DNA from: Ignavibacteriota bacterium | GTDB lineage: Bacteria > Bacteroidota > Ignavibacteria > UBA10030 | DNA: 64,000 nt | Direction of reading: 5' to 3' | NCBI GenBank assembly: GCA_963701295.1 | Contig: OY969585.1 | Location: 2,720,001 to 2,784,000 of the forward strand | Part shown: positions 44,146 through 63,035 of the stretch, in pieces | Position numbering within the stretch: the first letter of the stretch is position 1 | How the letters are laid out: each line of letters opens with the position of its first letter | Notes under the pieces: model-generated | Database searches by the model: none | What the model was told of the DNA's origin: nothing | Seen by the model: only the letters and a program-made list of their open reading frames with translations | Program-made: the position numbers and the translations under genes

Positions 44146-44151
44146 AACTGA

Positions 44152-44217
44152 AACGTAACAATTTGTATTGAAATAATCAACCACTAAATGGCTGATAATC
44201 ATCCATACAATGGACGA
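44152..44217 (-). promoter_or_regulatory. Putative leaderless promoter overlapped by two 22-bp palindromic repeats
   Basis: TTGATT-17-TACGTT with TGn extension, 6 nt before ATG; repeats at 44174-44195 and 44196-44217. Confidence 0.55.
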
Positions 44218-44443
44218 ATGCACATCCACACCGGTTTCGCCAAATCACGGAAGAACTTAAAATAAGGAGGGGCGTTATTTTAACTTCTTCTATTAGCCTA
44301 AAATAAGGATTTTCATCAAGCGGCAGGGGGCAAAGACTATCTTTGTTTTTCATCGGAAATCCCTGAAAGGAGCTTCAAATATTTAATATTAATTCCGAGA
44401 AATTTTATCTAGCGGTATTTCTATGACGTGATGCAATGTTGAG

Positions 44444-44562: not shown

Positions 44563-45555
44563 TTATCTCTGAAGTTCTCCGTTGTTAGGATTTCCAGGAT
44601 CGTCAAGCAATTGGATGTATGTGCATGGTCCTAAATCCGGATTTTCCCATGAAGACAATGCCCACACCACTTTCTTTTCCGGTGTTACTTCAAAAACCTG
44701 TACTGTACCTTTCCATTCTTCTGTTTTTGGATTACCCGCGCACCAATTGCAGATAACTGTATTTCCATTGGAAAGCCTATTGGCAGTCTGGTTGTTGAAT
44801 AATTTGAAAGGTACATCGGCTTGAGTAAGTTCCCACACTGTCTCCCCTTTCATGTTTACTTCTCGTGTATAACTCGACCAATCGCCGGAGATCAGTGTAT
44901 TCTCGTTATGCAATCGAATTACAGACCATGGAGATTTTGCATTCACCGACCACACCTCTTTGCCATCCAAAGTATACTCAACCACTTTGTTTTCTGATAA
45001 TAATGGTACTATAAGCGTACGATTTTGTGTGATTCTTACATGACGAAATTGTCCGTGAGTTCCTGTAGTGGTTGTTGGGATTAAAATCTCCTTCATAATT
45101 TTATTTTCTGCGGTATTAATGATTAACACTTTTGCTGGATTGGCGTTGAGAACCATCAATACGCTGTCTTTCCCTATTGGCTGGCATGAATGCGATTCAG
45201 TTCCTTTAGGACAAGAGAATTTCCAAATTATCTTTTTATCCGGAGTGATAATCCCTGCGCCTGACATACAAGCATACACAATGTTACCGTTTGAAAGCAT
45301 TGTTATATCATCAAATTCCTGATTACTTACTGAATCCGGATGCATAGGTATTGAATATTTCCAGACTACTTTACCATCGCGGACAAGAAACATCGATTGT
45401 GCTTCGGGATGACGTGTATCCCATTCACCAACATATAAAAAAGGATGCTGGCGTAATCCGTTCCCTGGAAATTTGTTGTCATTATTTAGTATATGAGCGT
45501 TTGGAGTGAAAGATAAGAAGAAGAAAATGAATGAAAGAAACATATTTATTCTCAT
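44563..45555 (-). CDS. Secreted beta-propeller protein (LxNGN repeats), function unknown
   Basis: Signal peptide; LSNGNIVY, LHNENTLI, LSNGNTVI; G/K.VVW blade ends. Confidence 0.75.
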   Translation of the reverse strand: MRINMFLSFIFFFLSFTPNAHILNNDNKFPGNGLRQHPFLYVGEWDTRHPEAQSMFLVRDGKVVWKYSIPMHPDSVSNQEFDDITMLSNGNIVYACMSGAGIITPDKKIIWKFSCPKGTESHSCQPIGKDSVLMVLNANPAKVLIINTAENKIMKEILIPTTTTGTHGQFRHVRITQNRTLIVPLLSENKVVEYTLDGKEVWSVNAKSPWSVIRLHNENTLISGDWSSYTREVNMKGETVWELTQADVPFKLFNNQTANRLSNGNTVICNWCAGNPKTEEWKGTVQVFEVTPEKKVVWALSSWENPDLGPCTYIQLLDDPGNPNNGELQR

Positions 45556-45605
45556 TGAACGTCCTCGTTCTATAAAAATTTTATATTGGTTTTATTGAAT
45601 TATTA

Positions 45606-46970
45606 TTACTGAACTTTAATGAGTTCGATACCTTTACCGTTTGGATCGAGATTTCTGCTATATTGTTTTTTATCGGAATTATTCCAATGCTCATGTACAC
45701 CGAGGCTTGATAGTCTTACCCCGTCAGGTTGATAAATTGTTTTTGACGGTGGGTCGTTTGCCAATGCTGCTTCATACATATATGTATCGGCAGGCGCACC
45801 GCTGCTTTTTCCCAATCTATCGCCAAATTCAGAACGTAAAAAGTCGTAACCGACTCCATCGATTGCCACTGGATCCTGAGACATAAAAATACTTGAAAGC
45901 CATTGGCCATTGAAGAGATTATTCCAAGCAGCAAACTCTTTGCTCACAATATCATTAACATCGCGGATGCCGTACAAGCCATCTATAATATAGAGGATGG
46001 TTTTCCCACCAAGATATTTCGAACCGATAAGGTCGACAAATGGATGATACACACCCGGGTTGTACCATGGATGATCCTGTGCATTAATTGAACCGTAATG
46101 ATTTTTTGCTGTAAGGCTTATACCCATTGAAATATGCCCTTTCATTAAAGACATATTAATGAGGTATGATGCTTCAAATACCTTTTGAGGAATCGAAGTA
46201 CCACATTTTGTTTCACCGGAATAATGAAGGGCATGTTCGTGCCAGACTACAGGCAGCCGGCCGTTTTCATTGTTCCCCTTGGAATCCATCCATAATACAC
46301 CTGGAAATTCCTGATGACAAGGCTCGTAAATCCGATCTGGGATAACCCGGATAGCTTCGTAAAACATAATTTTATACTGTGGCACTCCGGCATAATTGAC
46401 TAACTGTCTTATAAGTGCAAGTACAGTTTGTTTGGATGCATCAATTTGATTATCAACATCGCCATATCCTTCATAGGCATTATTACAATTGATTTTAACG
46501 GCGACCAGTTCGCCAGATTGATAGCCCTTTTCGCCTCTGTTGTTTGTTGAATTATAGTAAGAGAATATTTTGTTCCATGCTTCTTTTTCATTAGAATCAC
46601 CTGTGAGCCTGCAAATATTTTTCGACATCATCTTATCGACAACATCCTGTTTTGTTGAGTTATCATCCCACCAATGTCCTGTAACACCGTCCCAGAGTGT
46701 GGCGGTAGTATCCCGGCACCATACAACCCTGCCCGGAAAAATTCCTTTGCCAACGCCAATCGAGCAATTGGCGGAATCTTTCGGCACCCAAACTTTAGAG
46801 GTTTTTCCCTGTATATCAGAATTACCGTCATAAGAACTGAATCCATACACGGCAAAAAGAACCGCACTACAGATGCTTGCAAATAGCAAAATCTTGTAAC
46901 CAGAAACGGAGATGATATCCCAAGTGCAGACTCGTATTTTCCTAATTCTTGTTTCTTTTTGAATTTTCAT
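45606..46970 (-). CDS. DUF362-domain protein with N-terminal signal/TM
   Basis: G.GKGIFPGRVVW, VAVKINCN, YLIN...MKGH..GISLTAKNHYG, LYIIDGL, S.DPVAID. Confidence 0.8.
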   Translation of the reverse strand: MKIQKETRIRKIRVCTWDIISVSGYKILLFASICSAVLFAVYGFSSYDGNSDIQGKTSKVWVPKDSANCSIGVGKGIFPGRVVWCRDTTATLWDGVTGHWWDDNSTKQDVVDKMMSKNICRLTGDSNEKEAWNKIFSYYNSTNNRGEKGYQSGELVAVKINCNNAYEGYGDVDNQIDASKQTVLALIRQLVNYAGVPQYKIMFYEAIRVIPDRIYEPCHQEFPGVLWMDSKGNNENGRLPVVWHEHALHYSGETKCGTSIPQKVFEASYLINMSLMKGHISMGISLTAKNHYGSINAQDHPWYNPGVYHPFVDLIGSKYLGGKTILYIIDGLYGIRDVNDIVSKEFAAWNNLFNGQWLSSIFMSQDPVAIDGVGYDFLRSEFGDRLGKSSGAPADTYMYEAALANDPPSKTIYQPDGVRLSSLGVHEHWNNSDKKQYSRNLDPNGKGIELIKVQ

Positions 46971-47018
46971 TTTTACCCTATTCGTCCTTTCGATTTTAGC
47001 AATTTGATTTCATACTAT

Positions 47019-47948
47019 TCAATGAAATATTCTGCCAATAGTATAATCGGCATCTGTATCTATTATCTGTATACTCGACATAGTTTTTAAGAAAGTCGTA
47101 TCCTTATAAATCCAAATAACCTTTTTATCTCGCGTAACCTCGAATGCATGAGGGGCTTTCCCAAATTGGTTATGGCCTAACCAATTGGTCAACAGTAAAT
47201 TTCCATTCGGAAGACATTGCATTCCGGCCATAAATTTTAATTCAATGCCCGGAAGTTCATTTTTCGATAATTGCCAGACAAACATTCCCTTTGTATCCAC
47301 TTCGACAATCCGGGGATCGCCGTTATGGTCGGAACAGGCAATCAACGTATTTCCATTTGGCAAACGGATTACAGAATGCGGCCCGCCGGTTATAGGTATT
47401 TCCATGATCTTCTTGCCGGATGAATCGTATTCACACACGTTATCAAGTCCGTAATGTGCGACAAGGTAATTGCCATTTTCAAGTTTTCGGGCGTTCCGCA
47501 TGAAGGAGTGTCCGCCATCGACGGTATCGGGCAGAAGTTTTATTTCTTTTATTATTCTACCAACCGGATTCACTTCCAGCAGACGTCCTGAATTGCATTC
47601 ACCGATAAATGTATTGCTATTTGGAAGACGCTGACAGGCATATATTTCACTTTTCGATTCATAGGAGAACACTACTTTTTTATCCCGCGTAACTTCTTTC
47701 ACTCCATTGCCGGTATTGAATAAAATATTCCCATCGGACAACGCCCAAACATCATTACAACGTTCAGCCGGATATTGCCATACTAATTTACCTTCATCCG
47801 AAATTATACAGACAATCCCCTGAGTATAATCGGCGCAGAGAAAGGTATGGCACACTTTTCCGGTCTGGCTCGTTTGTGCCGTAGCAGAATTGAAAAGAAT
47901 TGATATAAGTGATATGAAAAAACCGAGTCGATACTTTGAGGTTTTCAT
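47019..47948 (-). CDS. Secreted beta-propeller protein, paralog of 44563-45555
   Basis: LSDGNILF, LENGNYLV, LPNGNTLI, LPNGNLLL, FEVTRDKKVIW; ATGA overlap with the GH97 stop. Confidence 0.75.
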   Translation of the reverse strand: MKTSKYRLGFFISLISILFNSATAQTSQTGKVCHTFLCADYTQGIVCIISDEGKLVWQYPAERCNDVWALSDGNILFNTGNGVKEVTRDKKVVFSYESKSEIYACQRLPNSNTFIGECNSGRLLEVNPVGRIIKEIKLLPDTVDGGHSFMRNARKLENGNYLVAHYGLDNVCEYDSSGKKIMEIPITGGPHSVIRLPNGNTLIACSDHNGDPRIVEVDTKGMFVWQLSKNELPGIELKFMAGMQCLPNGNLLLTNWLGHNQFGKAPHAFEVTRDKKVIWIYKDTTFLKTMSSIQIIDTDADYTIGRIFH

Positions 47949-49933
47949 TTTACCTTTTTGATTCGAGCCGCCCAACCACCGCCAGGTGCAAGTTGTATTT
48001 TCAATTTATCACTTGAAGAAATTTTGATTGTTTCCTTTTTATAGTCAGTAGCTTCTCGATCTGCATTGATTCCGTCTTTGAAAATTACCGCTTCATATTT
48101 TCCATCACTCAGGAAGGAAAAGTCAAGCGTTATGTCCCGTGCATTCCAATTAGTCATTGCCCCAATATACCAGGTATCTCCTTTTCTTCGGGCAAGCGCT
48201 ACATATTCTCCGACCACTCCATCCAGCGGAACAGTCTCGTCGAATGTTGTGGGAACTCTGACAATAAAATCGGTGCACTCTTGCTCTTTTATATATGTAG
48301 TTGGATTATCCGAAAGCATTTGAAGCGGCGCCTCGAAAACAACGTACATTGCTAATTGCTGGCAGCGGGTGCCCTGACTCATCGGATTCGCTCCGATCGG
48401 CCTGAAGTCTTCCTTGACAGCATTTCTCATCGCGCCAGGAGTGTAATCCATCGGGCCGGCCATCATCCGTATGTAGGGAATGCTGACAACATAGCGTGGC
48501 TGATCTTCGATAGCCCATTTATAATTCTCCAACCCCTTTACTCCTTCATAACCGATGACGTTGGGATACGTCCGCTGAAGACCGGTTGGTTTGAATACAC
48601 CATGGTAATCGACAAGCAGGTGATACTCTGCTGCTTTCTTTGCTATTTCATACAACGAAGCAACTGCTATTTGATCATCACGATCGACGAAATCAATTTT
48701 AAATCCTTTCACACCCATTTTAGAATACATAGGAAAAACTTTATCCATTTGCTGAGTAACAGCATACCATGAAGCCCAAAGAATTACATCCACACCTTTT
48801 TGTTTACCATAATCTAATATTTCCTGAAGATTGATTTCCGGAACGACTTTCGTCAGGTCTAACACCTCAGACCATCCTCTGTCCATGATGATATAAGGAA
48901 TTTTATTTGCCGCGGCAAAATCGATATAATACTTGTAGGTTGGAGTGTTGATGCCAGCTTTAAAATCCACATGAGAGATATTCCAATTATTCCACCAATC
49001 CCATGCTACTTGTCCCGGTTTTATCCAAGATATGTCGGTAAGTCTTGGAGGCGATGCTAACTTTTGCACAATGTCATTGTTCAATAATTCTTTGTCGCAC
49101 TGGCTGATGGCAATCACCCGCCATGGAAAATTTCGGGTACCGTAAGTTTTTGCAATATAGTCAGCTCTTTTCGTTGGAATGTAATTGATGCCTCCAAATC
49201 CGCCTAACTGTGCTTCTAAGGGATAGGGCGCGTATACCCCCATAAATCCTTTGCGCGTTTTATTAATATTGAGATACATACCTGGATAATTTTCGACGTC
49301 TGCCTCCAGAATTACAACTTTTTTATTACTACCTACATCGATCAACGCAGGCAGAAACGCCAGAGAGTCTTTTAAAAATTGAGAGATATTGATTTCTCGA
49401 TACAGGGCTTCAAAAGAAGAGTTAAATATTTTCCCACCTCTATAATCCCACGTAAAAGGAATGAATGCTTTATAATCATCCGTAAAATTGAAATTGGCTT
49501 CTTCATTCTTTATGATGAGATCACCTTCTTTCTTTGTAAAGAATCGATATGTAACTGCATCATTGTAGACTCTGAAGATAAATCCGTAATCACCCTGGCA
49601 ATCAATCGTGATCTGATTACACTGATCGGGAATAGATGCTTTCCTATAATTGATTGGAGTAATCACCTGATCAATTTTTTCGGTTTTGGTATTTGTGATT
49701 GTGACATTGTTACCCAACGCTTCGCCATTCTCCAATTGCATTGAGCTTGTGGATGGAGCAATGATCTGCATTCCTTCGCATTGAACAGACCAGATCATTT
49801 TAGATCCAACTTCAAGCCTTAAGGTAATTTTATTGTCTGGAGATTTGACCTCAAAGTTTTTGCTTTTTTGTGCATTCACTATTGCTGAATTCAACAATAG
49901 TGCTATGACTAATCCAATTCGTATAATTTTCAT
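47945..49933 (-). CDS. GH97 glycoside hydrolase, probably retaining subgroup
   Basis: SWIKPG.VAWDWW, GFKIDF, YEGVKGLE, RMMAGPMDYTPG; start moved to 49933. Confidence 0.93.
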   Translation of the reverse strand: MKIIRIGLVIALLLNSAIVNAQKSKNFEVKSPDNKITLRLEVGSKMIWSVQCEGMQIIAPSTSSMQLENGEALGNNVTITNTKTEKIDQVITPINYRKASIPDQCNQITIDCQGDYGFIFRVYNDAVTYRFFTKKEGDLIIKNEEANFNFTDDYKAFIPFTWDYRGGKIFNSSFEALYREINISQFLKDSLAFLPALIDVGSNKKVVILEADVENYPGMYLNINKTRKGFMGVYAPYPLEAQLGGFGGINYIPTKRADYIAKTYGTRNFPWRVIAISQCDKELLNNDIVQKLASPPRLTDISWIKPGQVAWDWWNNWNISHVDFKAGINTPTYKYYIDFAAANKIPYIIMDRGWSEVLDLTKVVPEINLQEILDYGKQKGVDVILWASWYAVTQQMDKVFPMYSKMGVKGFKIDFVDRDDQIAVASLYEIAKKAAEYHLLVDYHGVFKPTGLQRTYPNVIGYEGVKGLENYKWAIEDQPRYVVSIPYIRMMAGPMDYTPGAMRNAVKEDFRPIGANPMSQGTRCQQLAMYVVFEAPLQMLSDNPTTYIKEQECTDFIVRVPTTFDETVPLDGVVGEYVALARRKGDTWYIGAMTNWNARDITLDFSFLSDGKYEAVIFKDGINADREATDYKKETIKISSSDKLKIQLAPGGGWAARIKKVK

Positions 49934-50081
49934 TTCACCCTCATTGGTAGAAATATAATTTAACCATCGAATGCTCTTTCGAAGGCACTTGTTCAATCTA
50001 AGCTTTGGTGGCCAGAGAAGAATGGTCGCGTCGAGTAATCCTTTCTCCATTTGAATTATAACGATCGAATCCGCCGACCAT

Positions 50082-51716
50082 TTATCGTATAATCAATGTT
50101 GTATGAAGTACGACTGGAACGGCGCCGATGCGAGGCCCGCCCCAATCAGTTTCGTCGCCATTACGAATACGTAAAAGCTTGAATGTTCCATTTTCATACT
50201 TGCCTTCTTCAACTTTCAAGTATTGCCAGGCTTTTCCAGCATTGGCTCCAAGAGGTTGAAAGGTAAAATGGCAATGTGTTCCTGCCATGAGAAACTCGTT
50301 TTCACCTAGTTGTACTATCATGGCTTTGCCGATCGGACGGGCATTTGTTTTTATTTCGCGCCAGGATGACATACCGAATTTTACTATGGCCTGCCATGAG
50401 CCAAGATCTATTGTCTGTTCAGCATGATCCTCACGCTCTACAACAGATTTGATCTTACCTTCAAAACTCCATTGTGCTAATTCTCTCATCATAGGAGTTG
50501 CCATGGCGTATTCCTGTGCAAGAGGAGCGAGCCGGGCTTCGGTTTCAGCTTTTGCTTCCCCGCGACCATTATCGTCGATTCCAAATGGTGAAAAGCCTAT
50601 TCCACCATGTGCAAGAACCGAATACAAGTATCTCGTGTATTCTTCGTTTGAACCTATCTCAGGCACGAATAGCGGATTGTCCGGACGATCATAGAGCTCA
50701 ATCACCTTGAGTGCCTTTTCGCTTTCAGGCATATATATATCCGGAGCCAATAAGTCGATGGCTGGTGCTGCCGCTTTCCAAATTGGAATTATATTGTCCG
50801 TCGCACCACCGCTTTCATACGTTGATGCACTAGGGTTACTAATCGGGTCGCGTAGTGCAGCGTTTACGTACAGTGGTAATAGATTCACTGCTTTACCCTC
50901 CGCTGCAATGTAACCAATGTAATGCGCAACCGACCATGCATGGAAATATTCATCAGCATCATTTCCGAATACTTGCTTCCATGTCCCTTTGGCAACGACA
51001 GATTTCTTCAAAGCTTTTAGTATCTCCGGCTTGAGCAGTTCTTCAGGTACCTTTCCTTCGAATAGTTTTTGTGCTTCTTTGGAAAAATCGCGGACACTGT
51101 TCCATGCACCGGGTTCGTTTTCAACCTGAACCATAAGTACCGTGTGCTGTGGATCGGCATCCTTCAAATATTTCATGACTGCTGTGAATGCCTTGGCATC
51201 AGCTTCCATCGCAGCTTGCGTATGTGGCGAGGGCGAATCGACTGGCTGCCCGTTTTTTCCTGTGATATTTGGATACTTCAAAGCATCACGCTTCATCCAT
51301 TCTGGCATGTAATGATTGCTGCCGTTTTTCCATGTGGCAAACCATAAAATCACAAGATGAACATTGTGTTCACGTGCTTGGACGAGCAAAGTATCTACCA
51401 GCGAAAAATCAAACTTCCCTGGTTGCACTTCAATCTGTTCCCAGTAAATAGGCACTTCGAGCGTGTTAGCGTGTATCGTTTCAATTGCCAACCATAGTTG
51501 TGGTAACATGCCTGGCCAACCACTGGAATTGTGTGCCTGTCCACCAAGCATTAGAAACGGTTGCCCATCCACCAGAAGAGCATGACGGCCATTTTTTTCA
51601 ATAATCTGCGGCATCGTTCCAATACTGGTTTGGCTCCAGATAATTCCAAATGTCGATAAAGTAATTAAAAACCACGCACCGACTATTCGTCTCATTTTCA
51701 TTATTGCGTTCTTCAT
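50082..51716 (-). CDS. GH35 beta-galactosidase-like protein with DUF5597 C-terminus
   Basis: VDGQPFLMLGG..HNSS, WF.TWKNG, MVQVENE, APDIY, LFVPE, NGDE. Confidence 0.88.
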   Translation of the reverse strand: MKNAIMKMRRIVGAWFLITLSTFGIIWSQTSIGTMPQIIEKNGRHALLVDGQPFLMLGGQAHNSSGWPGMLPQLWLAIETIHANTLEVPIYWEQIEVQPGKFDFSLVDTLLVQAREHNVHLVILWFATWKNGSNHYMPEWMKRDALKYPNITGKNGQPVDSPSPHTQAAMEADAKAFTAVMKYLKDADPQHTVLMVQVENEPGAWNSVRDFSKEAQKLFEGKVPEELLKPEILKALKKSVVAKGTWKQVFGNDADEYFHAWSVAHYIGYIAAEGKAVNLLPLYVNAALRDPISNPSASTYESGGATDNIIPIWKAAAPAIDLLAPDIYMPESEKALKVIELYDRPDNPLFVPEIGSNEEYTRYLYSVLAHGGIGFSPFGIDDNGRGEAKAETEARLAPLAQEYAMATPMMRELAQWSFEGKIKSVVEREDHAEQTIDLGSWQAIVKFGMSSWREIKTNARPIGKAMIVQLGENEFLMAGTHCHFTFQPLGANAGKAWQYLKVEEGKYENGTFKLLRIRNGDETDWGGPRIGAVPVVLHTTLIIR

Positions 51717-51752
51717 ATTAATATCTTTCAAATTGTTATGACTGGTCTGTAT

Positions 51753-54164
51753 TTATTTAACTTGTAGTACTCCGGTTGTCAATTCTGGTGCAATAGCCGT
51801 AAGTTGAATTTTGCCTGTTGGTGAAGTCCGTTTTACCGTAACAAGAAGACTTCCCTGATAAGCATTGCGTGTATTGGTCTTATACGGACCAATATAGTCA
51901 AGTTCACCGTTGTCGATGCCGATAAGTTGACCTGCACCTTCAACCTGTATAGTGATCGCATTAGTTGCATCAATCACTTTTAAACCGGCTTCGTCAGTCA
52001 CATTTATTTCGTATAAGAGGATATCACTAGTAGTAAGCAATTGCAGTGAAGCGATCTGGAGTTTCGTTGCCGGGCCAGTGGTGAGCAATTTTGAAGAGGC
52101 AACCTGTTGACCTTTAATATATCCGGCCGCTTTGAGTTCGCCCGGGATATAGCCTACATTCCAGTCGCATGAGTAAGCATCACGAGATACGCGCTTTCGT
52201 CCAAGCGAATGATCATTGAGAAATAATTCCACTTCATCGCAATTGGTTGCAGCGCGAACTGTGATCTCTGCTTTTTCCAGCCAGTTCCATTTGAGCGATG
52301 CAGGTGTTGAATACCATGTGTGTTTGGGTTTATCACCTGTCAGTACAAAAATCTGCACCACCGGGTCGTCGCGCCAGTATGCTGCTCGTTGATAGAAACT
52401 GGGTTTCTTTCCGCCAGCAAGGTCCAGAAAACCGGAATTGTTTCCACGGCTTGGCAAACTTCCTGTCTCTCCGAGATAGTCAATGCCTGTCCAAATAAAA
52501 TCACCGATAACATAATTATTATCGCGAACACCGAGCCAGTAATGGATTTGATCACTGGTTTCAGTTCCCAGGAAGAGACGGTGAGGAAAACGTCTATGAT
52601 CGGGTACGTAGGTGCTGTCGCCATAAAGGCGGTCAATATAATTGTAACCGGCGATATCAAGTTGATCCATAAAACCGTTGCGAGAAGAAACGAATGACTG
52701 GTCGCATGCAGAAGTTGCCAGTCGTGATGGATCTTCTTCATGACAGATGTCAATTAGTTTTTTTGAAAGTTTCCAACCATCATCATTGAATTGATCAGGT
52801 ACTTCGTTACCGATACTGTAGAGGATTACACATGGATGATTTCGATCGCGTCGCAACATAGAGCGGAGATCGGCTTCAGACCACTGGTTAAAATAAAGAT
52901 GATAACCAAATTTCGCCTTGCCGCGCGGATTTTCAGAGAAGTTATATGGCCAGTCGCGCGTCCACTCGTCGAAGGCTTCATCAAAAACATAAATACCAAG
53001 TTGATCGCAAAGATCGTAAAATTCTGGTGCAAACGGATGATGACTTGTACGAATGGCATTGCAGCCCATTTCCTTTAACAGACCAAGGCGATAAGCCCAA
53101 ATTGCTTTGGGTACTGCATTACCGAATGACCCTCCATCCTGATGTAAACAAACGCCCTTGAGTTTGGTGGACTTGCCGTTAACAAAAAGTCCGTGATCGG
53201 GAATGAATTCGAGTTTACGAATTCCAAATGTTGTAGTGGTTTCGTCAAGTGTGCGTCCATCCAGTATCAAGGTGCTACGCAATTGGTAGAGGTTAGGAAT
53301 ACCGTCAGACCAAAGGCGAGGGTTCGGAATAGAAATTTGTTGAGTAGCATGTTGACCAGGATGCATGCTTTGGAATGCTAGTTTTGATTCAGCAGATGCA
53401 ACAATTTTGCCATCCAAAGTCAACACGCAACTTCGCAATGTGATATCCTTAGTTTGAGGTTTAACTTTCCAAGGATCTTTTACCCATGCTTGCTGTTCCT
53501 GTTCAGTAAAGAAATTTGGATCTATAATGTAATCTGTTTTGACAATAGCTTTCTCTGCTGAAATCTCGGGCGTTGAGATGCTGATACCGCCATCGAGATG
53601 AAAATGAGTATATCCTGTGGCAATTAAACGTACATGCCTATAAATGCCGGATCCAGCATACCAGCGTAACGAAGGTTCAGCCGAATCATCGACACGAACC
53701 GCAATGACATTGGGCGAGCCATCTTTATTAATGTACTCGGTAATATCATAACGAAAGCCGATAAAACCGTAGGGCCTGCGACCGAGAAATTGGCCGTTAA
53801 TCCAGACTTCGCTATTCATGTAAATCCCGTCGAACTCAATAACAACTTTTTTAAGAGTGTCGGGAGATGTAAAACTTTTTCGGTACCATCCGATGCCATG
53901 AGTAAAGTATCCACCGTTATTCTCGCCAGAGGGAGGCGGATTGACGGGACTTTCGATACTCCAATCGTGCGGAAGATTCAAGATACGCCAGCGAGTATCA
54001 TCGAAGTTGGGCTGTTTAGCAGCCGGATCATCGCCTAGCCAGAAACGCCATCCTTCATCAAATGGAATAATCTCTCGTCCTGCCTTACTTTCTGAAAATG
54101 TGGAGTCAGCGGCAGCAAGAATCTGAATTAAAACAAGATTGAGAATTAATAAGTATTTTTTCAT
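51753..54164 (-). CDS. GH2 beta-galactosidase-like glycoside hydrolase
   Basis: LPHDWSIE, RWYAGSGIYR, KGVCLH, NAIRTSH, DRNHP, SIGNE, GTE. Confidence 0.93.
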   Translation of the reverse strand: MKKYLLILNLVLIQILAAADSTFSESKAGREIIPFDEGWRFWLGDDPAAKQPNFDDTRWRILNLPHDWSIESPVNPPPSGENNGGYFTHGIGWYRKSFTSPDTLKKVVIEFDGIYMNSEVWINGQFLGRRPYGFIGFRYDITEYINKDGSPNVIAVRVDDSAEPSLRWYAGSGIYRHVRLIATGYTHFHLDGGISISTPEISAEKAIVKTDYIIDPNFFTEQEQQAWVKDPWKVKPQTKDITLRSCVLTLDGKIVASAESKLAFQSMHPGQHATQQISIPNPRLWSDGIPNLYQLRSTLILDGRTLDETTTTFGIRKLEFIPDHGLFVNGKSTKLKGVCLHQDGGSFGNAVPKAIWAYRLGLLKEMGCNAIRTSHHPFAPEFYDLCDQLGIYVFDEAFDEWTRDWPYNFSENPRGKAKFGYHLYFNQWSEADLRSMLRRDRNHPCVILYSIGNEVPDQFNDDGWKLSKKLIDICHEEDPSRLATSACDQSFVSSRNGFMDQLDIAGYNYIDRLYGDSTYVPDHRRFPHRLFLGTETSDQIHYWLGVRDNNYVIGDFIWTGIDYLGETGSLPSRGNNSGFLDLAGGKKPSFYQRAAYWRDDPVVQIFVLTGDKPKHTWYSTPASLKWNWLEKAEITVRAATNCDEVELFLNDHSLGRKRVSRDAYSCDWNVGYIPGELKAAGYIKGQQVASSKLLTTGPATKLQIASLQLLTTSDILLYEINVTDEAGLKVIDATNAITIQVEGAGQLIGIDNGELDYIGPYKTNTRNAYQGSLLVTVKRTSPTGKIQLTAIAPELTTGVLQVK

Positions 54165-54192
54165 TTGCTAAAATTTTATTTAAACGTATTTA

Positions 54193-56061
54193 TTATTCGA
54201 ATCTGTACACATTGTATGTTCGAGGTTGTTGCAACACTTCAAAAACAGTTGTTGCTCCATTCACATAGCCGTACAACTCTTGACCTGAAATAACATCGAA
54301 TAGTTTTGCGCCGGCTTTTTTAATCACGATGTTGTATCTTGCCGGGTAGGGTTGATATGACTGGGCAATGAATGTGTTATTGTTGTATGCGAACAGACAT
54401 ATCTGGCTTGGACTGTCAAGATAAACAGGAATTTCATCCATCATAACTCTTCTGATCTGAGAAAGCACTTCCTTGGGGAGATGGTACAGATCATCAAAAC
54501 TTTCAGGTATTGTAAGAATATATAATTTGCCTTTTTTCAATCCTCTGACTTGAATGAGCATGGAATAGCGGTTATTGCCCTTGTAAATTGCTTGAATAAT
54601 ATCTTCAGAAGTTACCAGTCCGTACGCCAACTCCGGAATAAGAATTTCGGTATCAGAGAAGTAGATGTTCGCAGGCTCTTCATCCATGAATCGACGAAAA
54701 GTAAATTGGTTTACCAATGCTTTCCGTCCTGTGTACTCAACCTCTATAATTTTCTCAATCCCTTTTCCTTGTAACGCCTTAAGGAGTCCTGTAGTAATGA
54801 TGATCGTTTTGTCTTCGTTGAGATGATTCACAATCTTATTAACGATATTAGGATCAAACTTCGCATGTTCGGTAAGAAATATTGTCCCGCGGTCGTCTGG
54901 AAAATCGGGATACAAATCCATAGGTATACCAACCATTCCAACGTAGTTATGAATGTACATTTCACCCGAAGAATGATACGGTTTATAAGCAGCGACACCG
55001 TATGGTTCTCCGAGTTTTCCAAGAAAAGCATCCAATTTATCGAATGTATACCCGGCGACCTCAGCAATAGGACTAAGCATTTTTGTTTTTCCATCAGGGT
55101 AATTTATTGTCTCGACTAAACTTCCGTAGCTCCAATGGATGATTGCCTTTGGCTTGGCAAATAAAGTGTTCTCAAGTTGTTCCGTATACCGGTTCAGCGT
55201 CTGACGCGCTCCGACATCGACCCAGCCGCCGCCAAATTTACCGGGTTTAATGTGTTCGAAGTATCGCATGATACCATAGCTTTGATACTGTTGAAGGTAT
55301 TGCGTTGTGTTTTCCGGATCCCGTGTTTCAGTGCCGGCCCAGATTTCATCGAACACTTTGGGTTGCGATTCAAGGTTGTATCCGCAGAACTGATATTGTT
55401 CATACCAATTGGGTGGTTTGAAAATGAGATGGATCTTCGGATTAACACTCCGGGCATTTTTGACGACAAGGTCTTCTCCGACCTCCTTCATAACTTTCAG
55501 ACGATATTCTTCCCACGTCATGTTTCCTTTTGCCTTTTGGCACAAATCGCATCGGCAGTTGAAAATGAACAGGTCGTCGAAAATAATTTCATCGAAAAGG
55601 GAAGCAGTATACGTTAAAATTTTTCGGAATTTTTCCCGGTCAATAGGATTCGAGTAGCAGAACCCGTTGAGACGATCACCGGGAGGACCGGCAACTGACG
55701 CCATAATACCGCCTGATACCTTGACGCCTTTGCCGGTGAAGAAAATTTTAAGTTTCTTGACATCTGCTTCTGGCAGTGTTTCATTATCCCTGTATGTCTC
55801 AACATACACTTTCTCAATCTTGATGGAACGCGTGATGAGGTTCCAACTCTCTTCAAGCCATTGAGGATCAGCTATCATTTTTTGCTCATCCTGAATGCAG
55901 CAAAATACCTCGACGTTGAAGTTCCGATAGCTTGTTGAATCTCCTTTCGCTTCTATTTTTTCTTGTGCGAAAGCTAACATAACTGCATGTGTAAGGATCA
56001 GAATAATAAGGACAGAGAATCTAATTTCTCTCCCAAAATTTGTAAGCTTTATGTTGAGCAT
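54193..56061 (-). CDS. Secreted uncharacterised protein, predicted glycoside-hydrolase-like
   Basis: Signal-like hydrophobic stretch; FDEIIFDD, CRCDLC, PNWYE, GTETRD; embedded among CAZymes; start uncertain. Confidence 0.6.
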   Translation of the reverse strand: MLNIKLTNFGREIRFSVLIILILTHAVMLAFAQEKIEAKGDSTSYRNFNVEVFCCIQDEQKMIADPQWLEESWNLITRSIKIEKVYVETYRDNETLPEADVKKLKIFFTGKGVKVSGGIMASVAGPPGDRLNGFCYSNPIDREKFRKILTYTASLFDEIIFDDLFIFNCRCDLCQKAKGNMTWEEYRLKVMKEVGEDLVVKNARSVNPKIHLIFKPPNWYEQYQFCGYNLESQPKVFDEIWAGTETRDPENTTQYLQQYQSYGIMRYFEHIKPGKFGGGWVDVGARQTLNRYTEQLENTLFAKPKAIIHWSYGSLVETINYPDGKTKMLSPIAEVAGYTFDKLDAFLGKLGEPYGVAAYKPYHSSGEMYIHNYVGMVGIPMDLYPDFPDDRGTIFLTEHAKFDPNIVNKIVNHLNEDKTIIITTGLLKALQGKGIEKIIEVEYTGRKALVNQFTFRRFMDEEPANIYFSDTEILIPELAYGLVTSEDIIQAIYKGNNRYSMLIQVRGLKKGKLYILTIPESFDDLYHLPKEVLSQIRRVMMDEIPVYLDSPSQICLFAYNNNTFIAQSYQPYPARYNIVIKKAGAKLFDVISGQELYGYVNGATTVFEVLQQPRTYNVYRFE

Positions 56062-56128
56062 GTTTCTATCCCTTAAATGGTTTATTCTAAAGGTATTGTA
56101 AAAACTATTTTTAGAAGACAAGCGTCTC

Positions 56129-58246
56129 CTATTTTTTAACCAGTTTATATATTGGAAAAACTTTTTCTGAATACGTAGTCGGACTTGGATGATTTTCTTT
56201 AATAAGGTTGATCATGAGATTATCGAAAAGTGCAACATTACTTGTTCTATCTTTACTGCCAGTAACGAGACCAACCATACCTTCTGAAAACGTAGAGTCA
56301 GTAACGGTGATTACCTGTTTTTTATTTACAAAACCAGTGATGGTCGTTCCTGAAAATCTGAGTGTAAGAGTGTTCCATCGATTCGCTGCAATATTGGCGG
56401 CTTTGCCTGTTGATAAAAGAGTGCCCATTTCAGCTTTTTCATCCTGCTTGGAAACGTACAACGAGCATGTACCATCTGCGGACATATTCATATAATACCC
56501 ATTTGGCTTGCATCCATATCCGGTTCCTGTACCGATGACACGGCCCATTACGCCGGCCCAGCCTTCTTTATTGAGATACACATCTGTACTGACTTCATAG
56601 TCTTTCCAATATCGATCTCCAAGAATTGTATACGGCATCCATTCAGGTGCCCAGCTTTGCGCGCCTGCTTCAACAACCTGGCGCAAACATTTACCTTTAT
56701 GATCTGGTCGATCTGCAATTTCGAATATCCCTGCTATATCCGCAGTATAGTGAGGCAAGTATCCCCAAGACTTTGCATCTGTATATTCATCAAATGTTTC
56801 ATAATAAGGGAATGGGAATGGTTTGGAAGAGGGAATAGCTACAAACGATCCCTTCTGCTGTCCTGTGGTTGTAGAGAGTGAGTAAATAGATTGAGGTTCT
56901 AAAGTAATTTCAAATTTGCCATTTACAGGAGTAATGTCTTCCAACTTGACAAACTGCTCTTGACCATTGCTTCGCCACAAACAAAGTTTACCGGCAGAGA
57001 GTCCGCCGCTGATTGCGAAGGAAATATTCTGATTAGCCTTAGCATCCTTTGTTTCAATAATAATACTGTAATCAGTCCCCGGCGATTTTAATGTTACATA
57101 GGTTCCTTCCCCAGCGAGTTTACCGCAAGCCCCGTTTACATATTGCCAACCTGGTTGGCAGAACTGTCCATAATGCGCATATCCCCAAAGCACCTCGCGG
57201 GTATAATAATTTCCGCTCCAGGGTTCACGTGCGATCATAATGGCAGGATCTTCCGGAAATGGTTCGATGCTGTAAGTTGAAGCAACAAGGAACCAATTCA
57301 CAATCATGGTAGCGCCGCTTTCAATGAAGTTTTTATTAAATGATTCCACCATACTTATTTCGCAGTCAAACCCTTTCATATAAATATGTTCTTCCGAATT
57401 CCAAATAGGTTTGCCCAATTCTTCGCTCAGTTTTATTATATCCGGAGGTGTAGGCAGCTCATTCATCGTATGCGCGCTCATGATATCCACTGCAGCTTTT
57501 AAAACCGAATCGGTTCTCATGTCTTTGCACCACTCGAATTTTTTATCTCCCCAATTATCAAAAGCATGGATTTTAACTTTTGATAGGCCATTCTTTTTAA
57601 GTGTAGACCTGAACATTTTTACAAAATCTTCATTCACACCTTTTTCATTTCGGCAGCCAATGGCGTCCAAATCGAGACCATAAACATTTTTCAACCCTTT
57701 GATCCAAGAGGCATAATAATCGCACATGTCCTGCGACCAGAAATTATTATTGCCTATCCACTTAGGGCAGCCCCAGGCATTGGCATCGAGCATAATGGCT
57801 GGATTTCGTTTTCTGGCCTCGCTCATGATCCACCATTCATAACCCCTGCTGTAGTTCAAATCGTTTCTGGAATGCATGTGACTTGGCTCCGAACCCTGAG
57901 TTGAATTACCATCTCCGGGAACTTCGACCAACAATGCTGAGATGGAAGCTCCAAACTTGGGTTTGAACAGTAAATCCAATATCTGACTTCGTTGAGGCTC
58001 CGGATAATCTTTTAATAAAGCCGACGTAGCTCCACCGCCGCTTACGGCACCAATTCCATCAAATCGTTTGCCGCCGGCTTTTCCGTCGATATTGACAGTT
58101 TGACTGTTTAATGTGGCCACAAAAAAGTCCAACAGAATGAAACAGCAGGTTGAGCGCAAAGTTATATCAAAGTATGAAGATTTGAAAAATAATTTTATTG
58201 ATCTCATCAATGCATCTGTTTTGATTAATGATAGAAGACGTTTCAT
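56129..58246 (-). CDS. GH59 galactocerebrosidase-like beta-galactosidase with C-terminal lectin-like domain
   Basis: FDGIGAVSGGGATS.LL.DYPEP.RSQILD.LFKP.FGA, RGYEWW, RNE, WNSE. Confidence 0.92.
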   Translation of the reverse strand: MKRLLSLIKTDALMRSIKLFFKSSYFDITLRSTCCFILLDFFVATLNSQTVNIDGKAGGKRFDGIGAVSGGGATSALLKDYPEPQRSQILDLLFKPKFGASISALLVEVPGDGNSTQGSEPSHMHSRNDLNYSRGYEWWIMSEARKRNPAIMLDANAWGCPKWIGNNNFWSQDMCDYYASWIKGLKNVYGLDLDAIGCRNEKGVNEDFVKMFRSTLKKNGLSKVKIHAFDNWGDKKFEWCKDMRTDSVLKAAVDIMSAHTMNELPTPPDIIKLSEELGKPIWNSEEHIYMKGFDCEISMVESFNKNFIESGATMIVNWFLVASTYSIEPFPEDPAIMIAREPWSGNYYTREVLWGYAHYGQFCQPGWQYVNGACGKLAGEGTYVTLKSPGTDYSIIIETKDAKANQNISFAISGGLSAGKLCLWRSNGQEQFVKLEDITPVNGKFEITLEPQSIYSLSTTTGQQKGSFVAIPSSKPFPFPYYETFDEYTDAKSWGYLPHYTADIAGIFEIADRPDHKGKCLRQVVEAGAQSWAPEWMPYTILGDRYWKDYEVSTDVYLNKEGWAGVMGRVIGTGTGYGCKPNGYYMNMSADGTCSLYVSKQDEKAEMGTLLSTGKAANIAANRWNTLTLRFSGTTITGFVNKKQVITVTDSTFSEGMVGLVTGSKDRTSNVALFDNLMINLIKENHPSPTTYSEKVFPIYKLVKK

Positions 58247-59784
58247 TTAAGTTCTTTCTGCTTTATGGTATTCAATTTTACATCTTCAATGCCGGCACTT
58301 TGAAGAATACTGAAATTATTAACATTCTTGAGAATAATAGCTTTTGAATTCTCCGTGCGTTGAATCGTTACATTTTGCAGATCAACACCGTCAACATCAT
58401 CAAATATCAATCCGGGGCGATCATCAGGTGCTAACAATTTAAACTCAATATCATGTATTTTAATATCTTTTGCATGTCGAACAAATAGACCGTAAGCCGG
58501 TGCTTTGCCGAACATTCCGGGTTCAGGATAACTATTTGGATTTTCTGGGACATCCCTTTCAGCTTGTTCTTTTGTGCCTTCCCCTTTATAATAAATCCGG
58601 ATGTTACTCAAATGAATACCTTCGATAGGATGACCCGGCAATCCAGAAATCGTGCAAGCAAATGATGAATCCGCTCTGTAAACAATCACATTGCTAATAT
58701 TGATTCTTCTGAGTGTACCAACAGGCACTCCGTCCGGTCCGCGCAACCTTGCTCCAAGCCGTAGAAAGATGGGATCATTCACAATATCTCTCATCGTGAT
58801 ATTTGTGATGGTGACATCTTCCAGAGTCCCTCCATCGACTGTTTCTAACGCAAACCCTCTGCAATAATCAAACACACAATTGGAAATCGTAATATTTTTA
58901 AATCCACCGTTGGATTCTGTACCGAATTTAATTCTTCCGGTCGGATGATAACCGTATTCAGGATTATTCGAACGTCCGTACGTTCCATCCAACAAAGTGC
59001 CTTCATCATAACCGCTTAACTGGCAATTTGTGATCGTGACATTTTCAGTAGCACGGGCAAACCCTAAAGCGAAGGTGCTTTTCAAACAAATGCCATCGTC
59101 AAACGGAGAATTGACTGTGCAATTCGTGACGCGAACATTCCGGCAGCAATCTATGTCTATACCGTCACGATTCGTGTCTATTTTTAAATTGTCGATCGTC
59201 AAATTATCTATCCCTGTTGCAAGTATTGCAAACCAACCTCCGTGAATAATCGTCACATCGCGCAGAATGACATTACGGCATCGGTATAGACTAATGGCCT
59301 TGTTCGCGTTTTGTTTCGAACCTTTTACCCAATCCTTATAAAGATTTTTTCCATTGATCCAACCGGCTCCTATGAGAGAGACATTTTGAATGTCGTAACC
59401 CCAGATGAGACTGCTTTTCCAGTGACTGTGCCCGGAATCCTGATATTTCACGCTGATGCTTTCTTCTTCATCATCATAACCGTTTTCGGTACTTACAGGT
59501 GCAGCGATGATCGTAGCGCCTTGATCGATGTATAACGTGATGTCGCTTTTCAGGCGTATGGATCCGCTTAAATAATTTCCGGCGGGAATATAAACAGTGC
59601 CTCCACCGGCATGCGAAGCGGTGTCGATAGCTGCATTTATTGCTTTGCTGTCGAGGTTTTTTCCATCGCCAAGTGCTCCATAATTTTTCACATTAAAAAA
59701 AGCAGATCCTTCGCTTGCAAAGCATGAAATTGAAGGCAGTACAACAACGGAAAAGAAAAGTAATGACCAACCTGATTTTTTCAT
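58243..59784 (-). CDS. GH28 pectin-lyase-fold glycoside hydrolase
   Basis: FNVKNYGA.GDG, YLSGSI.LKS, NRDGIDID, DDGICLK, RIKFGTESNGGF. Confidence 0.9.
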   Translation of the reverse strand: MKKSGWSLLFFSVVVLPSISCFASEGSAFFNVKNYGALGDGKNLDSKAINAAIDTASHAGGGTVYIPAGNYLSGSIRLKSDITLYIDQGATIIAAPVSTENGYDDEEESISVKYQDSGHSHWKSSLIWGYDIQNVSLIGAGWINGKNLYKDWVKGSKQNANKAISLYRCRNVILRDVTIIHGGWFAILATGIDNLTIDNLKIDTNRDGIDIDCCRNVRVTNCTVNSPFDDGICLKSTFALGFARATENVTITNCQLSGYDEGTLLDGTYGRSNNPEYGYHPTGRIKFGTESNGGFKNITISNCVFDYCRGFALETVDGGTLEDVTITNITMRDIVNDPIFLRLGARLRGPDGVPVGTLRRINISNVIVYRADSSFACTISGLPGHPIEGIHLSNIRIYYKGEGTKEQAERDVPENPNSYPEPGMFGKAPAYGLFVRHAKDIKIHDIEFKLLAPDDRPGLIFDDVDGVDLQNVTIQRTENSKAIILKNVNNFSILQSAGIEDVKLNTIKQKELK

Positions 59785-59852
59785 GTATTGGCTTTCATGC
59801 AATCATTTAAATGATAAAAGAATTATGTGTTTTCATCTTTAGCTGTTTGTTT

Positions 59853-63035
<3,183 letters not shown>

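What the first reader, a model, noticed from the sequence alone, without database searches (positions are those of the whole stretch)
44563..47948. Uncharacterised propeller-DUF362-propeller module ending a pectin/galactan operon
Seen: two paralogous exported propellers (LxNGN blades, shared NW..G and FEVT..KKV.W ends, basic GQFRHVR / HSFMRNAR patch) flank an exported DUF362 protein with KGH..KNH motifs. Gaps are about 50 bp and the first gene is ATGA-coupled to GH97. None matches a CAZy family I recognise. Inference: an undescribed periplasmic glycan or uronate-processing system. I recall DUF362 being grouped with the LarA racemase fold (unverified), which would suggest sugar-acid epimerase or redox chemistry.
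Basis: partly seen in the sequence, partly recalled or inferred. Interest (0 to 1): 0.7.

Follow-up and report, generated by a model that had tools for sequence, protein, structure and literature searches.

The report
Exported DUF362–propeller sugar-acid enzyme module
Three uncharacterised genes close a plant-glycan-degrading operon; two of them recur as one fused protein in many bacteria and likely form an undescribed exported enzyme pair acting on sugar acids, while the third may be the glycan-cutting lyase that this genome otherwise appears to lack.

Summary
(1) DUF362 plus propeller B: fused in 50 of 120 listed long relatives of propeller B, in both orders and in at least three DUF362 clades. 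They occur in pectin/galactan and also alpha-mannan loci. Elsewhere the same DUF362 clade is fused to two known lactonase families. (2) Propeller A travels with a YteR-like GH105 (34 of 83 loci). This single-contig genome has one GH105 and no match to ten lyase Pfam families. DUF362 has the LarA N-terminal fold (Z 14.6) and keeps matches to His174, Lys184 and probably His200. It is probably not nickel-pincer dependent: LarC is missing in 5 of 15 near-complete host genomes, and no lar gene lies in 80 loci. Both propellers belong to the uncharacterised PDB 3NO2 / PF22701 family. Best guess (0.35): propeller B opens sugar lactones, DUF362 acts at the alpha-carbon of the resulting acid, and propeller A is a new lyase. 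No activity is shown. The exact triad is rare (2 of 83 loci). I found no functional description in print; this scan noted the same module before on other DNA.

The parts
47019..47948 (-). Propeller A, 309 aa: predicted exported six-bladed beta-propeller (PF22701; PDB 3NO2 family), the GH105-associated subtype. Predicted top-face residues D40, Y41, N65, D66, E101, Y103, E117, H147, R151, H165, Y166, H191, H208, W256, H259.
   Evidence: (pLDDT 89.9)
45606..46970 (-). Long-form DUF362 protein, 454 aa, with one N-terminal hydrophobic helix (about residues 25-43) and the LarA N-terminal-domain fold.
   Evidence: (pLDDT 91.0)
46071..46142 (-). DUF362 K277-G-H279...K289-N290...H300 segment. H279 and K289 register with LarA His174 and Lys184; H300 is the candidate for His200.
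   Evidence: profile match not significant; H279 84/84, K289 84/84, H300 83/84
44563..45555 (-). Propeller B, 330 aa: predicted exported paralogue of propeller A and the subtype fused to DUF362 elsewhere. E44, E80, D82, D83, E120, H122, H167, R171, H172, W210, Q256 and W271 are invariant in its close subtype.
   Evidence: 46/46 for each residue listed; E188 45/46
47945..50050 (-). GH97 glycoside hydrolase; its TGA overlaps the propeller A ATG (context).
50082..63017 (-). Rest of the operon (context): GH35-like 50082-51731, GH2 51753-54164, unannotated 642-aa protein 54193-56121, GH59 56129-58246, GH28 58243-59802, GH2 59853-63017.
63105..64000 (-). GH105 (YteR-like) running off the window; the only GH88/105 found in the genome (context).

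Best explanation
The three genes end a glycan-utilisation operon and encode two separable, predicted exported units: DUF362 plus propeller B, which likely work together on sugar acids (propeller B likely opening sugar lactones, DUF362 likely acting at the alpha-carbon of the open acid), and propeller A, which is likely a new kind of polysaccharide lyase feeding the operon's GH105. Shown: gene order, folds, fusions, neighbourhoods and residue conservation. Inferred for propeller B: lactone hydrolysis by a His122/Arg171/Glu188 site. Inferred for DUF362: C2 epimerisation or dehydration of an aldonate or uronate, with His279 as base and Lys159/Lys289/His300 and acidic residues holding the carboxylate or a bare divalent metal instead of the nickel-pincer cofactor. 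Inferred for propeller A: beta-elimination with a His/Tyr catalyst and Arg151 as charge neutraliser. My odds by step: functional DUF362-propeller B link 0.9; both act on carbohydrates 0.8; NPN-independent 0.8; lactonase-type propeller B 0.35-0.4; lyase-type propeller A 0.3-0.35.
For: Fusions: among 120 listed long relatives of propeller B, 28 are DUF362-propeller, 19 propeller-DUF362 and 3 DUF362-propeller-propeller. P0010 fuses close orthologues (70% and 63% identity) in the window's order. The link appears in at least three separate clades of a 95-sequence DUF362 tree (FastTree, midpoint root). DUF362 is adjacent or fused in 6 of 12 regions centred on B-like propellers (34-75% identity) from Bacteroidales-order genomes. 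Lactonase swap: among 253 long DUF362 domains, 20 carry a C-terminal SMP-30/gluconolactonase domain and 1 a PF10282 lactonase, the latter nested inside the SGL clade. Propeller B His122, Arg171 and Glu188 sit at the same blade registers and spacings (49, 17) as the His/Arg/Glu of that PF10282 domain and of CMLE His148/Arg196/Glu212 (PMC1360075 legend); they are 46/46, 46/46 and 45/46 conserved. LarA homologues epimerise gluconate/mannonate (PMC11770544 passage). DUF362 fold: Z 14.6, rmsd 2.9, 208 aligned, with the next non-LarA hit at Z 4.6. Other long DUF362 proteins carry CBM6, CBM35, CBM32-type and dockerin domains (CBM9-dockerin in PMC5742341). Propeller A: GH105 in 34 of 83 loci, within 1.5 kb in 29, and 10 of 25 after clustering at 80%; fused to GH88/105 in L153, P0265 and L261. 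The locus GH105 is closest to YteR (E 2e-66) and is the only one found in the genome. No match in this genome to PF00544, PF14683, PF22842, PF09492, PF18370, PF14583, PF19501, PF15892, PF07940 or PF05426. R151, H165, Y166, H191, H208, W256 and H259 are each 70/70 in a sample of 70 of 204 close A-type domains. Arg/His/Tyr is the residue set of propeller lyases PL24, PL25 and PL42 (PMC8377490 passages).
Against: No activity is shown. Most long DUF362 genes have no propeller nearby: of 80 GTDB loci, 1 has a clear one and 1 a weak one within the flanks (only 42 loci are 15 kb or longer). Of the 120 nearest DUF362 homologues only P0010 is a propeller fusion. The 50/120 figure comes from a search limited to long proteins, so it is a share of fusions, not of the family. 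The SGL fusions are one clade and may be a single event. No consistent lactone-producing oxidoreductase was seen in the loci. The His-Arg-Glu likeness is a sequence-register comparison, not a superposition; CMLE/Pgl are seven-bladed, and their second Arg has no counterpart (Gln256). Lactonases rank at Z about 20, below 3NO2 (32) and unrelated propellers (23-24), and no PL24/25/42 chain is among the 50 rows shown. The propellers fuse to at least a dozen unrelated enzymes, which also fits a binding module. The three class relatives with propeller A show none of the window's GH families or DUF362 within 10 kb (L086-L088), and one of them lacks a close YteR-like GH105 (G082). GH105 could use lyase products made by other organisms; PL3, PL6/7, PL8 and PL27 were not searched. 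The profile match to LarA is not significant (probability 0.3, E 0.2).
Confidence: 0.35

Rival explanations
1. The propellers are non-catalytic glycan-binding or targeting modules (a new CBM-like family), and DUF362 is the only enzyme, acting on polymer or oligomer as an esterase, lyase or reducing-end epimerase.
For: Propeller B is appended, mostly C-terminally, to GH88/105, GH28, GH29, GH97, GH5, GH27, GH3, GH2, GH127, CE15, PF00756 esterase, PF05426 and ThuA proteins; 15 of 120 long relatives are double propellers. DUF362 also carries CBM6, CBM35 and dockerin domains, so the propeller may fill a CBM slot. Aromatic top-face residues are conserved.
Against: The pocket holds many invariant His, Arg, Glu and Asp residues. 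Stand-alone copies have their own hydrophobic N-terminus and no lipobox, and up to three paralogues co-occur in one locus (L115, L140).
Confidence: 0.25
2. Both propellers are polysaccharide lyases of one new family, and DUF362 processes the unsaturated uronate that GH105 releases.
For: His167/His147 and Arg171/Arg151 are shared by both subtypes (100%/83% and 100%/95%). GH105 fusions occur with B-like propellers too (8 of 120). No known lyase family was found in this genome or, apart from one weak alginate-lyase hit, among the neighbours scanned.
Against: B-like propellers with or without DUF362 sit in GH76/GH92/GH125/GH38 alpha-mannan loci that show no uronate enzymes (L254, L258). GH105 is present in only 1 of those 12 B-centred regions.
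Confidence: 0.15
3. DUF362 is a nickel-pincer (NPN) enzyme outside the cytoplasm that oxidises or disproportionates sugars to aldonolactones, which the propeller then hydrolyses.
For: H279/K289 register with LarA His174/Lys184, and H300 is 83/84 conserved. This genome has LarB, LarC and LarE. An NPN enzyme that disproportionates sugars is known (NphT, PMC13524815 abstract). The lactonase fusions fit this reading.
Against: LarC was found in 10 of 15 near-complete genomes with long DUF362, against 17 of 20 related genomes without it. It was not found in 22 of 50 further hosts, including two chromosome-level records (completeness not given). No larA/B/C/E lies in 80 DUF362 loci (1.18 Mb). A Tat-like motif is present in 1 of 84 proteins, and dockerin-bearing forms exist.
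Confidence: 0.12
4. The propellers are arylsulfate-sulfotransferase-like enzymes that move or remove sulfate.
For: Propeller A passes the PF05935 cut-off on a 74-residue stretch. ASST (3ELQ, Z 23.1) and Cpz4 (Z 22.9) are the top enzymes in the fold search.
Against: The match covers positions 57-142 of 374 only. The profile hit to 3ELQ is E 9e-4, weaker than generic propellers. I identified no sulfatase among the recurring neighbours of the close subtypes.
Confidence: 0.05
5. The three genes are neighbours by mosaic assembly and share no pathway.
For: All three genes co-occur in only 2 of 83 loci. Propeller A was found in 4 of 251 class genomes and in 0 of 5 sampled same-genus genomes. The genome has five other long DUF362 genes with no propeller.
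Against: Repeated fusion in both orders and adjacency involving different DUF362 clades.
Confidence: 0.05

Closest known systems
[quoted passage not shown]
   Same: N-terminal-domain fold (Z 14.6, rmsd 2.9, 208 residues, chain range 33-266), same clan (PMC11770544), and His/Lys in register with His174/Lys184.
   Different: The top matches align mainly to the N-terminal domain, and no LarA C-terminal domain is evident. No clear His108 equivalent by eye. Predicted exported. Several hosts lack LarC. Sequence identity 9-15%.
BACCAC_01654 (PDB 3NO2, Bacteroides caccae, function unknown); Pfam PF22701 Mala_s_1-like
   Same: Same six-bladed propeller family (E 2.8e-32, TM 0.77, Z 32) with the shared His-x3-Arg motif.
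   Different: About 29% identity. The window carries two specialised subtypes with distinct invariant pockets. No function is known for either.
Propeller lactonases and cycloisomerases: SMP-30/gluconolactonase (PF08450) and Pgl/CMLE (PF10282)
   Same: They occupy the same C-terminal slot on long DUF362. Propeller B has His-Arg-Glu at comparable blade registers.
   Different: No Pfam match to either family. Six blades against seven for Pgl/CMLE (recalled; Pfam name). The second Arg is absent, and SMP-30-type metal ligands are not evident.
Propeller polysaccharide lyases PL24, PL25, PL42
   Same: Conserved Arg, His and Tyr on the predicted top face; partner GH105 consumes lyase products.
   Different: Those are seven-bladed (PMC8377490). 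No sequence match, and none among the 50 fold rows shown.
Short Tat/Fe-S DUF362 proteins (generic PF04015)
   Same: Pfam match and the K-x-H, K-N, D-P-V-A-x-D motifs.
   Different: The long clade has about 400 core residues, a C-terminal HEHW motif, a Tat-like motif in 1 of 84 and CxxCxxC in 0 of 84, and is fused to glycan-related domains.

Membership tests
DUF362 (PF04015) | Pfam score above the gathering cut-off | tested here: met
   44.9 bits against 24
LarA superfamily | N-terminal alpha/beta domain fold | tested here: met
   VIA Z 12.4-14.6 for all 12 LarA entries listed; next hit 4.6
LarA superfamily | Pfam Lar_N / LarA two-domain sequence signature | tested here: not met
   No Lar_N hit at E 0.1; no LarA chain in the PDB sequence search at E 10; hhalign probability 0.3
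LarA superfamily | His174, Lys184 (NPN tether) and His200 (Ni ligand) | tested here: inconclusive
LarA superfamily | Second catalytic His (His108) | tested here: inconclusive
   No conserved His in the expected region (E/D205 and R208 instead); the equivalence is by eye
NPN-dependent enzymes | Host encodes LarC (with LarB and LarE) | tested here: not met
   Met in this genome but not for the clade: LarC not found in 5 of 15 hosts of 99-100% completeness and 22 of 50 others
NPN-dependent enzymes | Covalent NPN adduct and nickel-dependent activity | not testable with these tools
   Needs intact-mass MS and assay
PF22701 / PDB 3NO2 propeller family | Pfam cut-off and fold match | tested here: met
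   77.1 and 58.4 bits against 27.5; Z 32 and TM 0.77 for propeller A; propeller B was not modelled on its own
PL24/PL25/PL42 lyases | Seven-bladed propeller | tested here: not met
   The propeller A model has six blades; those families have seven (PMC8377490)
PL24/PL25/PL42 lyases | Top-face Arg neutraliser with His/Tyr catalyst | tested here: inconclusive
   Invariant Arg/His/Tyr are present; no superposition was possible, and absence from the 50 fold rows is not exclusion
Pgl/CMLE lactonases (PF10282) | Pfam match | tested here: not met
   No PF10282 hit at E 0.1
Pgl/CMLE lactonases (PF10282) | His-Arg-Glu-Arg catalytic set | tested here: inconclusive
   His122/Arg171/Glu188 are at like registers; the fourth residue is absent
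SMP-30/gluconolactonase (PF08450) | Pfam match | tested here: not met
   No hit for either propeller; fold Z about 20 only
Arylsulfate sulfotransferase (PF05935) | Full-length match and catalytic His/Asn/Arg set | tested here: inconclusive
   Partial hit, 57-142 of 374, for A only; 3ELQ E 9e-4; catalytic residues not mapped
Any CAZy activity | Measured activity on a glycan | not testable with these tools
   Needs assays

The most novel reading that the evidence does not exclude
The window holds founding members of two undescribed carbohydrate-active enzyme families: a six-bladed propeller family whose A subtype is a new polysaccharide lyase (the missing partner of GH105) and whose B subtype is a new lactonase, plus a secreted LarA-fold enzyme that performs sugar-acid alpha-carbon chemistry without the nickel-pincer cofactor. 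Together they would form an unrecognised extracytoplasmic sugar-acid step in glycan utilisation loci of Bacteroidota, Verrucomicrobiota and Planctomycetota, and give the first function for DUF362 and for PDB 3NO2.
Probability: 0.25. Interest if true: 0.85.

Novelty: new variant of a known kind. Interest (0 to 1): 0.6.

Why it matters
DUF362 and the 3NO2 propeller family are large: at least 5,689 and 5,670 relatives among about 8,000 scored candidates each. I found no assigned function for either. The fusions, the lactonase swap and the GH105-without-lyase pattern turn them into three cheap assays. A positive result would add new CAZy-type families and show that the LarA fold can work outside the cell without its organometallic cofactor.

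Tried and rejected
Complex prediction of DUF362 (58-454) with propeller B (28-330): no verdict (score 0.00, controls not folded); not used as evidence either way. PDB sequence search of DUF362: nothing. NCBIfam: only sub-threshold hits for the three genes. ESM Atlas: only unnamed DUF362 and PQQ/ASST-like clusters. Promoter and terminator scan: no excess over shuffles and no terminator-like site after propeller B. RNA: one metatranscriptome with share 0.07; its contigs are mostly under 90% alike and none of the listed pieces spans the triad, so nothing is shown on expression. The pdb_via_wide search was not run for DUF362. Other beta-helix proteins of the genome were read and, by eye, are not PL1/PL9-like (PF22842 and PF00544 negative). 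Literature: searches for DUF362 (14 papers), COG2006/COG2768/PF04015/IPR007160/CL0471 (14), BACCAC_01654/3NO2/PF22701 (148 papers, swamped by chemistry; one listed, none relevant), a five-term lyase query (0) and Mala s 1 gave no functional description. The library lacks most subscription journals. PMC13524815 has no DUF362 mention in its text or in 12 of 17 supplementary files; 5 were not searched. An earlier scan note's claim that relatives sit beside lar genes was not reproduced in my loci.
Full report
1. Observation. The minus strand carries GH105 (runs off the window), GH2, GH28, GH59, an unannotated 642-aa gene, GH2, a GH35-like gene, GH97, propeller A (47948-47019), DUF362 (46970-45606) and propeller B (45555-44563). 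The gaps are 48 and 50 bp with an ATGA overlap. The propellers are 31% identical, and every motif named is present. All three proteins have a hydrophobic N-terminus with no Tat motif or lipobox, so export is a prediction. The genome is one 3.64-Mb contig, 99.3% complete. It has no other propeller of this family and five more long DUF362 genes. About 50 kb upstream of the triad lie further glycoside hydrolases and a LacI regulator.

2. The propellers. Both pass PF22701. The model of A (pLDDT 89.9) has six blades. Its clear match is 3NO2, a Bacteroides caccae protein of unknown function (E 2.8e-32; TM 0.77; Z 32, next 24.3). The family is large (1,726 representatives at E 1e-10). Beyond blade-repeat residues, D66/D83, E101/E120, H147/H167, R151/R171 and W256/W271 are shared across 119 A-like and 27 B-like non-redundant domains. 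Within subtypes the predicted top face is almost invariant: in A, R151, H165, Y166, H191, H208, W256 and H259 are 70/70 (a random 70 of 204 domains); in B, E80, D82, D83, E120, H122, H167, R171, W210, Q256 and W271 are 46/46 and E188 is 45/46. These sets are redundant by construction (55% or more identity to the query). The face assignment comes from blade register, not from coordinates.

3. DUF362. The model (pLDDT 91.0) matches only LarA-family chains: Z 12.4-14.6, about 208 residues, mainly LarA's N-terminal domain, with the next hit at Z 4.6. PMC11770544 (passages) places DUF362 and LarA in clan CL0471, uses DUF362 only as an outgroup, and names His108/His174 (catalytic), Lys184 and Arg75 (cofactor) and His200 (nickel). 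PMC12611868 (passages) assigns cofactor binding to the N-domain and substrate binding to the C-domain. A profile comparison was not significant (probability 0.3), but its best segment puts H279 and K289 on His174 and Lys184 without gaps. In 84 non-redundant long DUF362 domains, K159, N161, H279, K289, D366, D376, E400, E427 and W429 are invariant and H300 is 83/84.

4. Cofactor test. This genome has larB, larC, larE and a divergent Lar_N protein, none near the locus. Across 401 phylum genomes, 16 (including this one) carry long DUF362. LarC was found in 10 of the 15 others, against 17 of 20 related genomes without it; the five lacking it are 99-100% complete. It was not found in 22 of 50 further hosts (50 of my 80 loci; completeness not given; two are chromosome-level records). 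No larA/B/C/E lies in the 80 loci (1.18 Mb). One of 84 proteins has a Tat-like motif. Four of five paralogues here end in a YPNPFNP-type secretion tail (recognised by eye), and one homologue carries CBM6/35 and a dockerin. NPN dependence is therefore unlikely for this clade.

5. Linkage of DUF362 and propeller B. Among 120 listed (of 137) long relatives of B, 50 are DUF362 fusions: 28 with DUF362 first, 19 with the propeller first and 3 with two propellers. Fifteen are double propellers and 8 are GH105 fusions; the rest join GH28, GH29, GH97, GH5, GH27, GH3, GH2, GH127, CE15, esterases, ThuA or unassigned domains. That search returns only long proteins. In a FastTree of 95 DUF362 domains the link appears in at least three separate clades (no formal test of independence). 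In a sample of 401 genomes from the order of a Bacteroidaceae record, 28 had a propeller. I fetched 20 regions chosen by score and contig length from the 41 places listed. DUF362 is adjacent or fused in 6 of the 12 centred on B-like genes (34-75% identity to B). Several of these are alpha-mannan loci with GH76, GH92, GH125 or GH38, so the pair is not pectin-specific. The reverse link is weak: 1 of 80 GTDB DUF362 loci has a clear propeller nearby and 1 a weak one (most are 36-54% relatives and many contigs are short). In those loci DUF362 is instead fused to an SMP-30 gluconolactonase (20 domains), a PF10282 lactonase (1, nested in the SGL clade), beta-helices (8) or CBMs.

6. Linkage of propeller A. 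In 83 loci (80 metagenomic, 3 genomic), GH105 occurs in 34, GH2 in 22, propeller B in 16, DUF362 in 15, GH97 in 15, GH28 in 10 and GH59 in 7. After clustering at 90% the counts are GH105 25, DUF362 14 and B 13 of 71; at 80% they are 10, 2 and 4 of 25. GH105 is within 1.5 kb in 29 of 83. All three genes occur together in 2 loci (L089 in the window's order, L096 rearranged). A-type domains fuse to GH88/105, FAD oxidoreductases, 3-keto-disaccharide hydrolase, ThuA and GH62 (30 proteins scanned). [quoted passage not shown] Ten lyase-associated Pfam families gave no match in this genome (each rang in at least one control genome). The Pfam-to-PL correspondences are recalled, except PF15892 = PL42 (PMC8377490). 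Scans of neighbour representatives found one weak alginate-lyase hit and no pectate or RG lyase (one search covered 65 of 116 selected rare neighbours plus 2 cluster representatives). Against this: the three class relatives have A with none of the window's GH families or DUF362 within 10 kb, and cross-feeding could supply GH105.

7. Mechanism. I commit to two units. Propeller B likely opens sugar lactones: it fills the slot that two known lactonase families fill on the same DUF362 clade, and His122/Arg171/Glu188 mirror the register and spacing of Pgl/CMLE His148/Arg196/Glu212 (PMC1360075 legend). DUF362 likely acts at the alpha-carbon of the open 2-hydroxy acid, as LarA homologues do on gluconate and mannonate, but with a His base and probably a bare metal. 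Propeller A likely cleaves a uronate-containing glycan by beta-elimination, using the Arg/His/Tyr set typical of propeller lyases (PMC8377490 passages). All chemistry is inferred; joint confidence is 0.35. The main rival is a non-catalytic binding role for the propellers (0.25). The weakest point is the source of lactones.

8. Known and new. The proteins are members of PF04015 and PF22701. They are not members of LarA proper, PL24/25/42, PF10282 or PF08450 by the tests listed. In print I found only the clan link and a DUF362-CBM9-dockerin remark (PMC5742341 passages); PMC7955657 passages concern nested Fe-S motifs. PMC13524815 (abstract, section 6, term search, 12 of 17 supplementary files) concerns aldo-keto reductases and does not mention DUF362. 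The searches are listed under Tried and rejected. This scan noted the same module on other DNA (e1-5027421, e1-2230225). What this report adds is the split into two units, the lactonase swap, the missing-lyase test and the evidence against NPN. Verdict: real, undescribed in what I could search, testable, mechanism unproven. Interest 0.6.

Noticed in passing
window 54193-56121 (-): A 642-aa predicted exported protein inside the operon with no Pfam, NCBIfam or PDB match. It has a CRCDLC cysteine cluster, two paralogues in the genome (43% and 26%), and one homologue fused to a B-type propeller (P0492). It is a candidate new glycoside hydrolase or an alternative missing lyase.
   Followed up: partly
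G000:C1:1534412-1536445, 2295743-2297728, 2299858-2301759, 2388374-2390599, 2867346-2868899: The five other long DUF362 paralogues start with an unusual hydrophobic N-terminal region containing a conserved RVIPKPxRAxYPC-like loop (a PKPSR-like motif in 52 of 84 clade members). The window's protein lacks it. Its role is unexplained.
   Followed up: partly
G000:C1:3179350-3180618 (L169): A divergent Lar_N protein beside a gene that looks like 6-phosphogluconate dehydrogenase (by eye) and a GH2-like gene. It keeps His/His/Lys/His in alignment with LarA and is a plausible sugar-acid epimerase and user of the genome's larBCE.
   Followed up: partly
G000:C1:2550743-2553226: A short DUF362 with a Tat-like N-terminus directly upstream of a membrane protein with a CxxxCP motif; this is the separate DUF362 type noted in earlier scan findings.
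   Followed up: no
G000:C1:2784314-2785846 (L171:1314-2846): The GH3 gene upstream of GH105 is in two ORFs and lacks most of its N-terminal domain; it appears broken.
   Followed up: no
L262, L264, L265, L267, L268; P0275, P0281, P0285, P0298: More distant A-like propellers sit beside or are fused to large HZS_alpha / FGE-sulfatase-domain proteins, often with DeoC-like aldolases or a dihydroxyacetone kinase. This looks like a third, different system.
   Followed up: no
L115, L140, L127, L139, L142: A third propeller subtype (about 44% identical to B) co-occurs with A, and in L115 and L140 also with B, in the same loci.
   Followed up: partly
window 42913-44229 (-): An AAA_14 + DUF4143 gene follows the operon after a 333-bp gap; the same family also lies near a propeller-DUF362 fusion in L260. 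Probably incidental.
   Followed up: no
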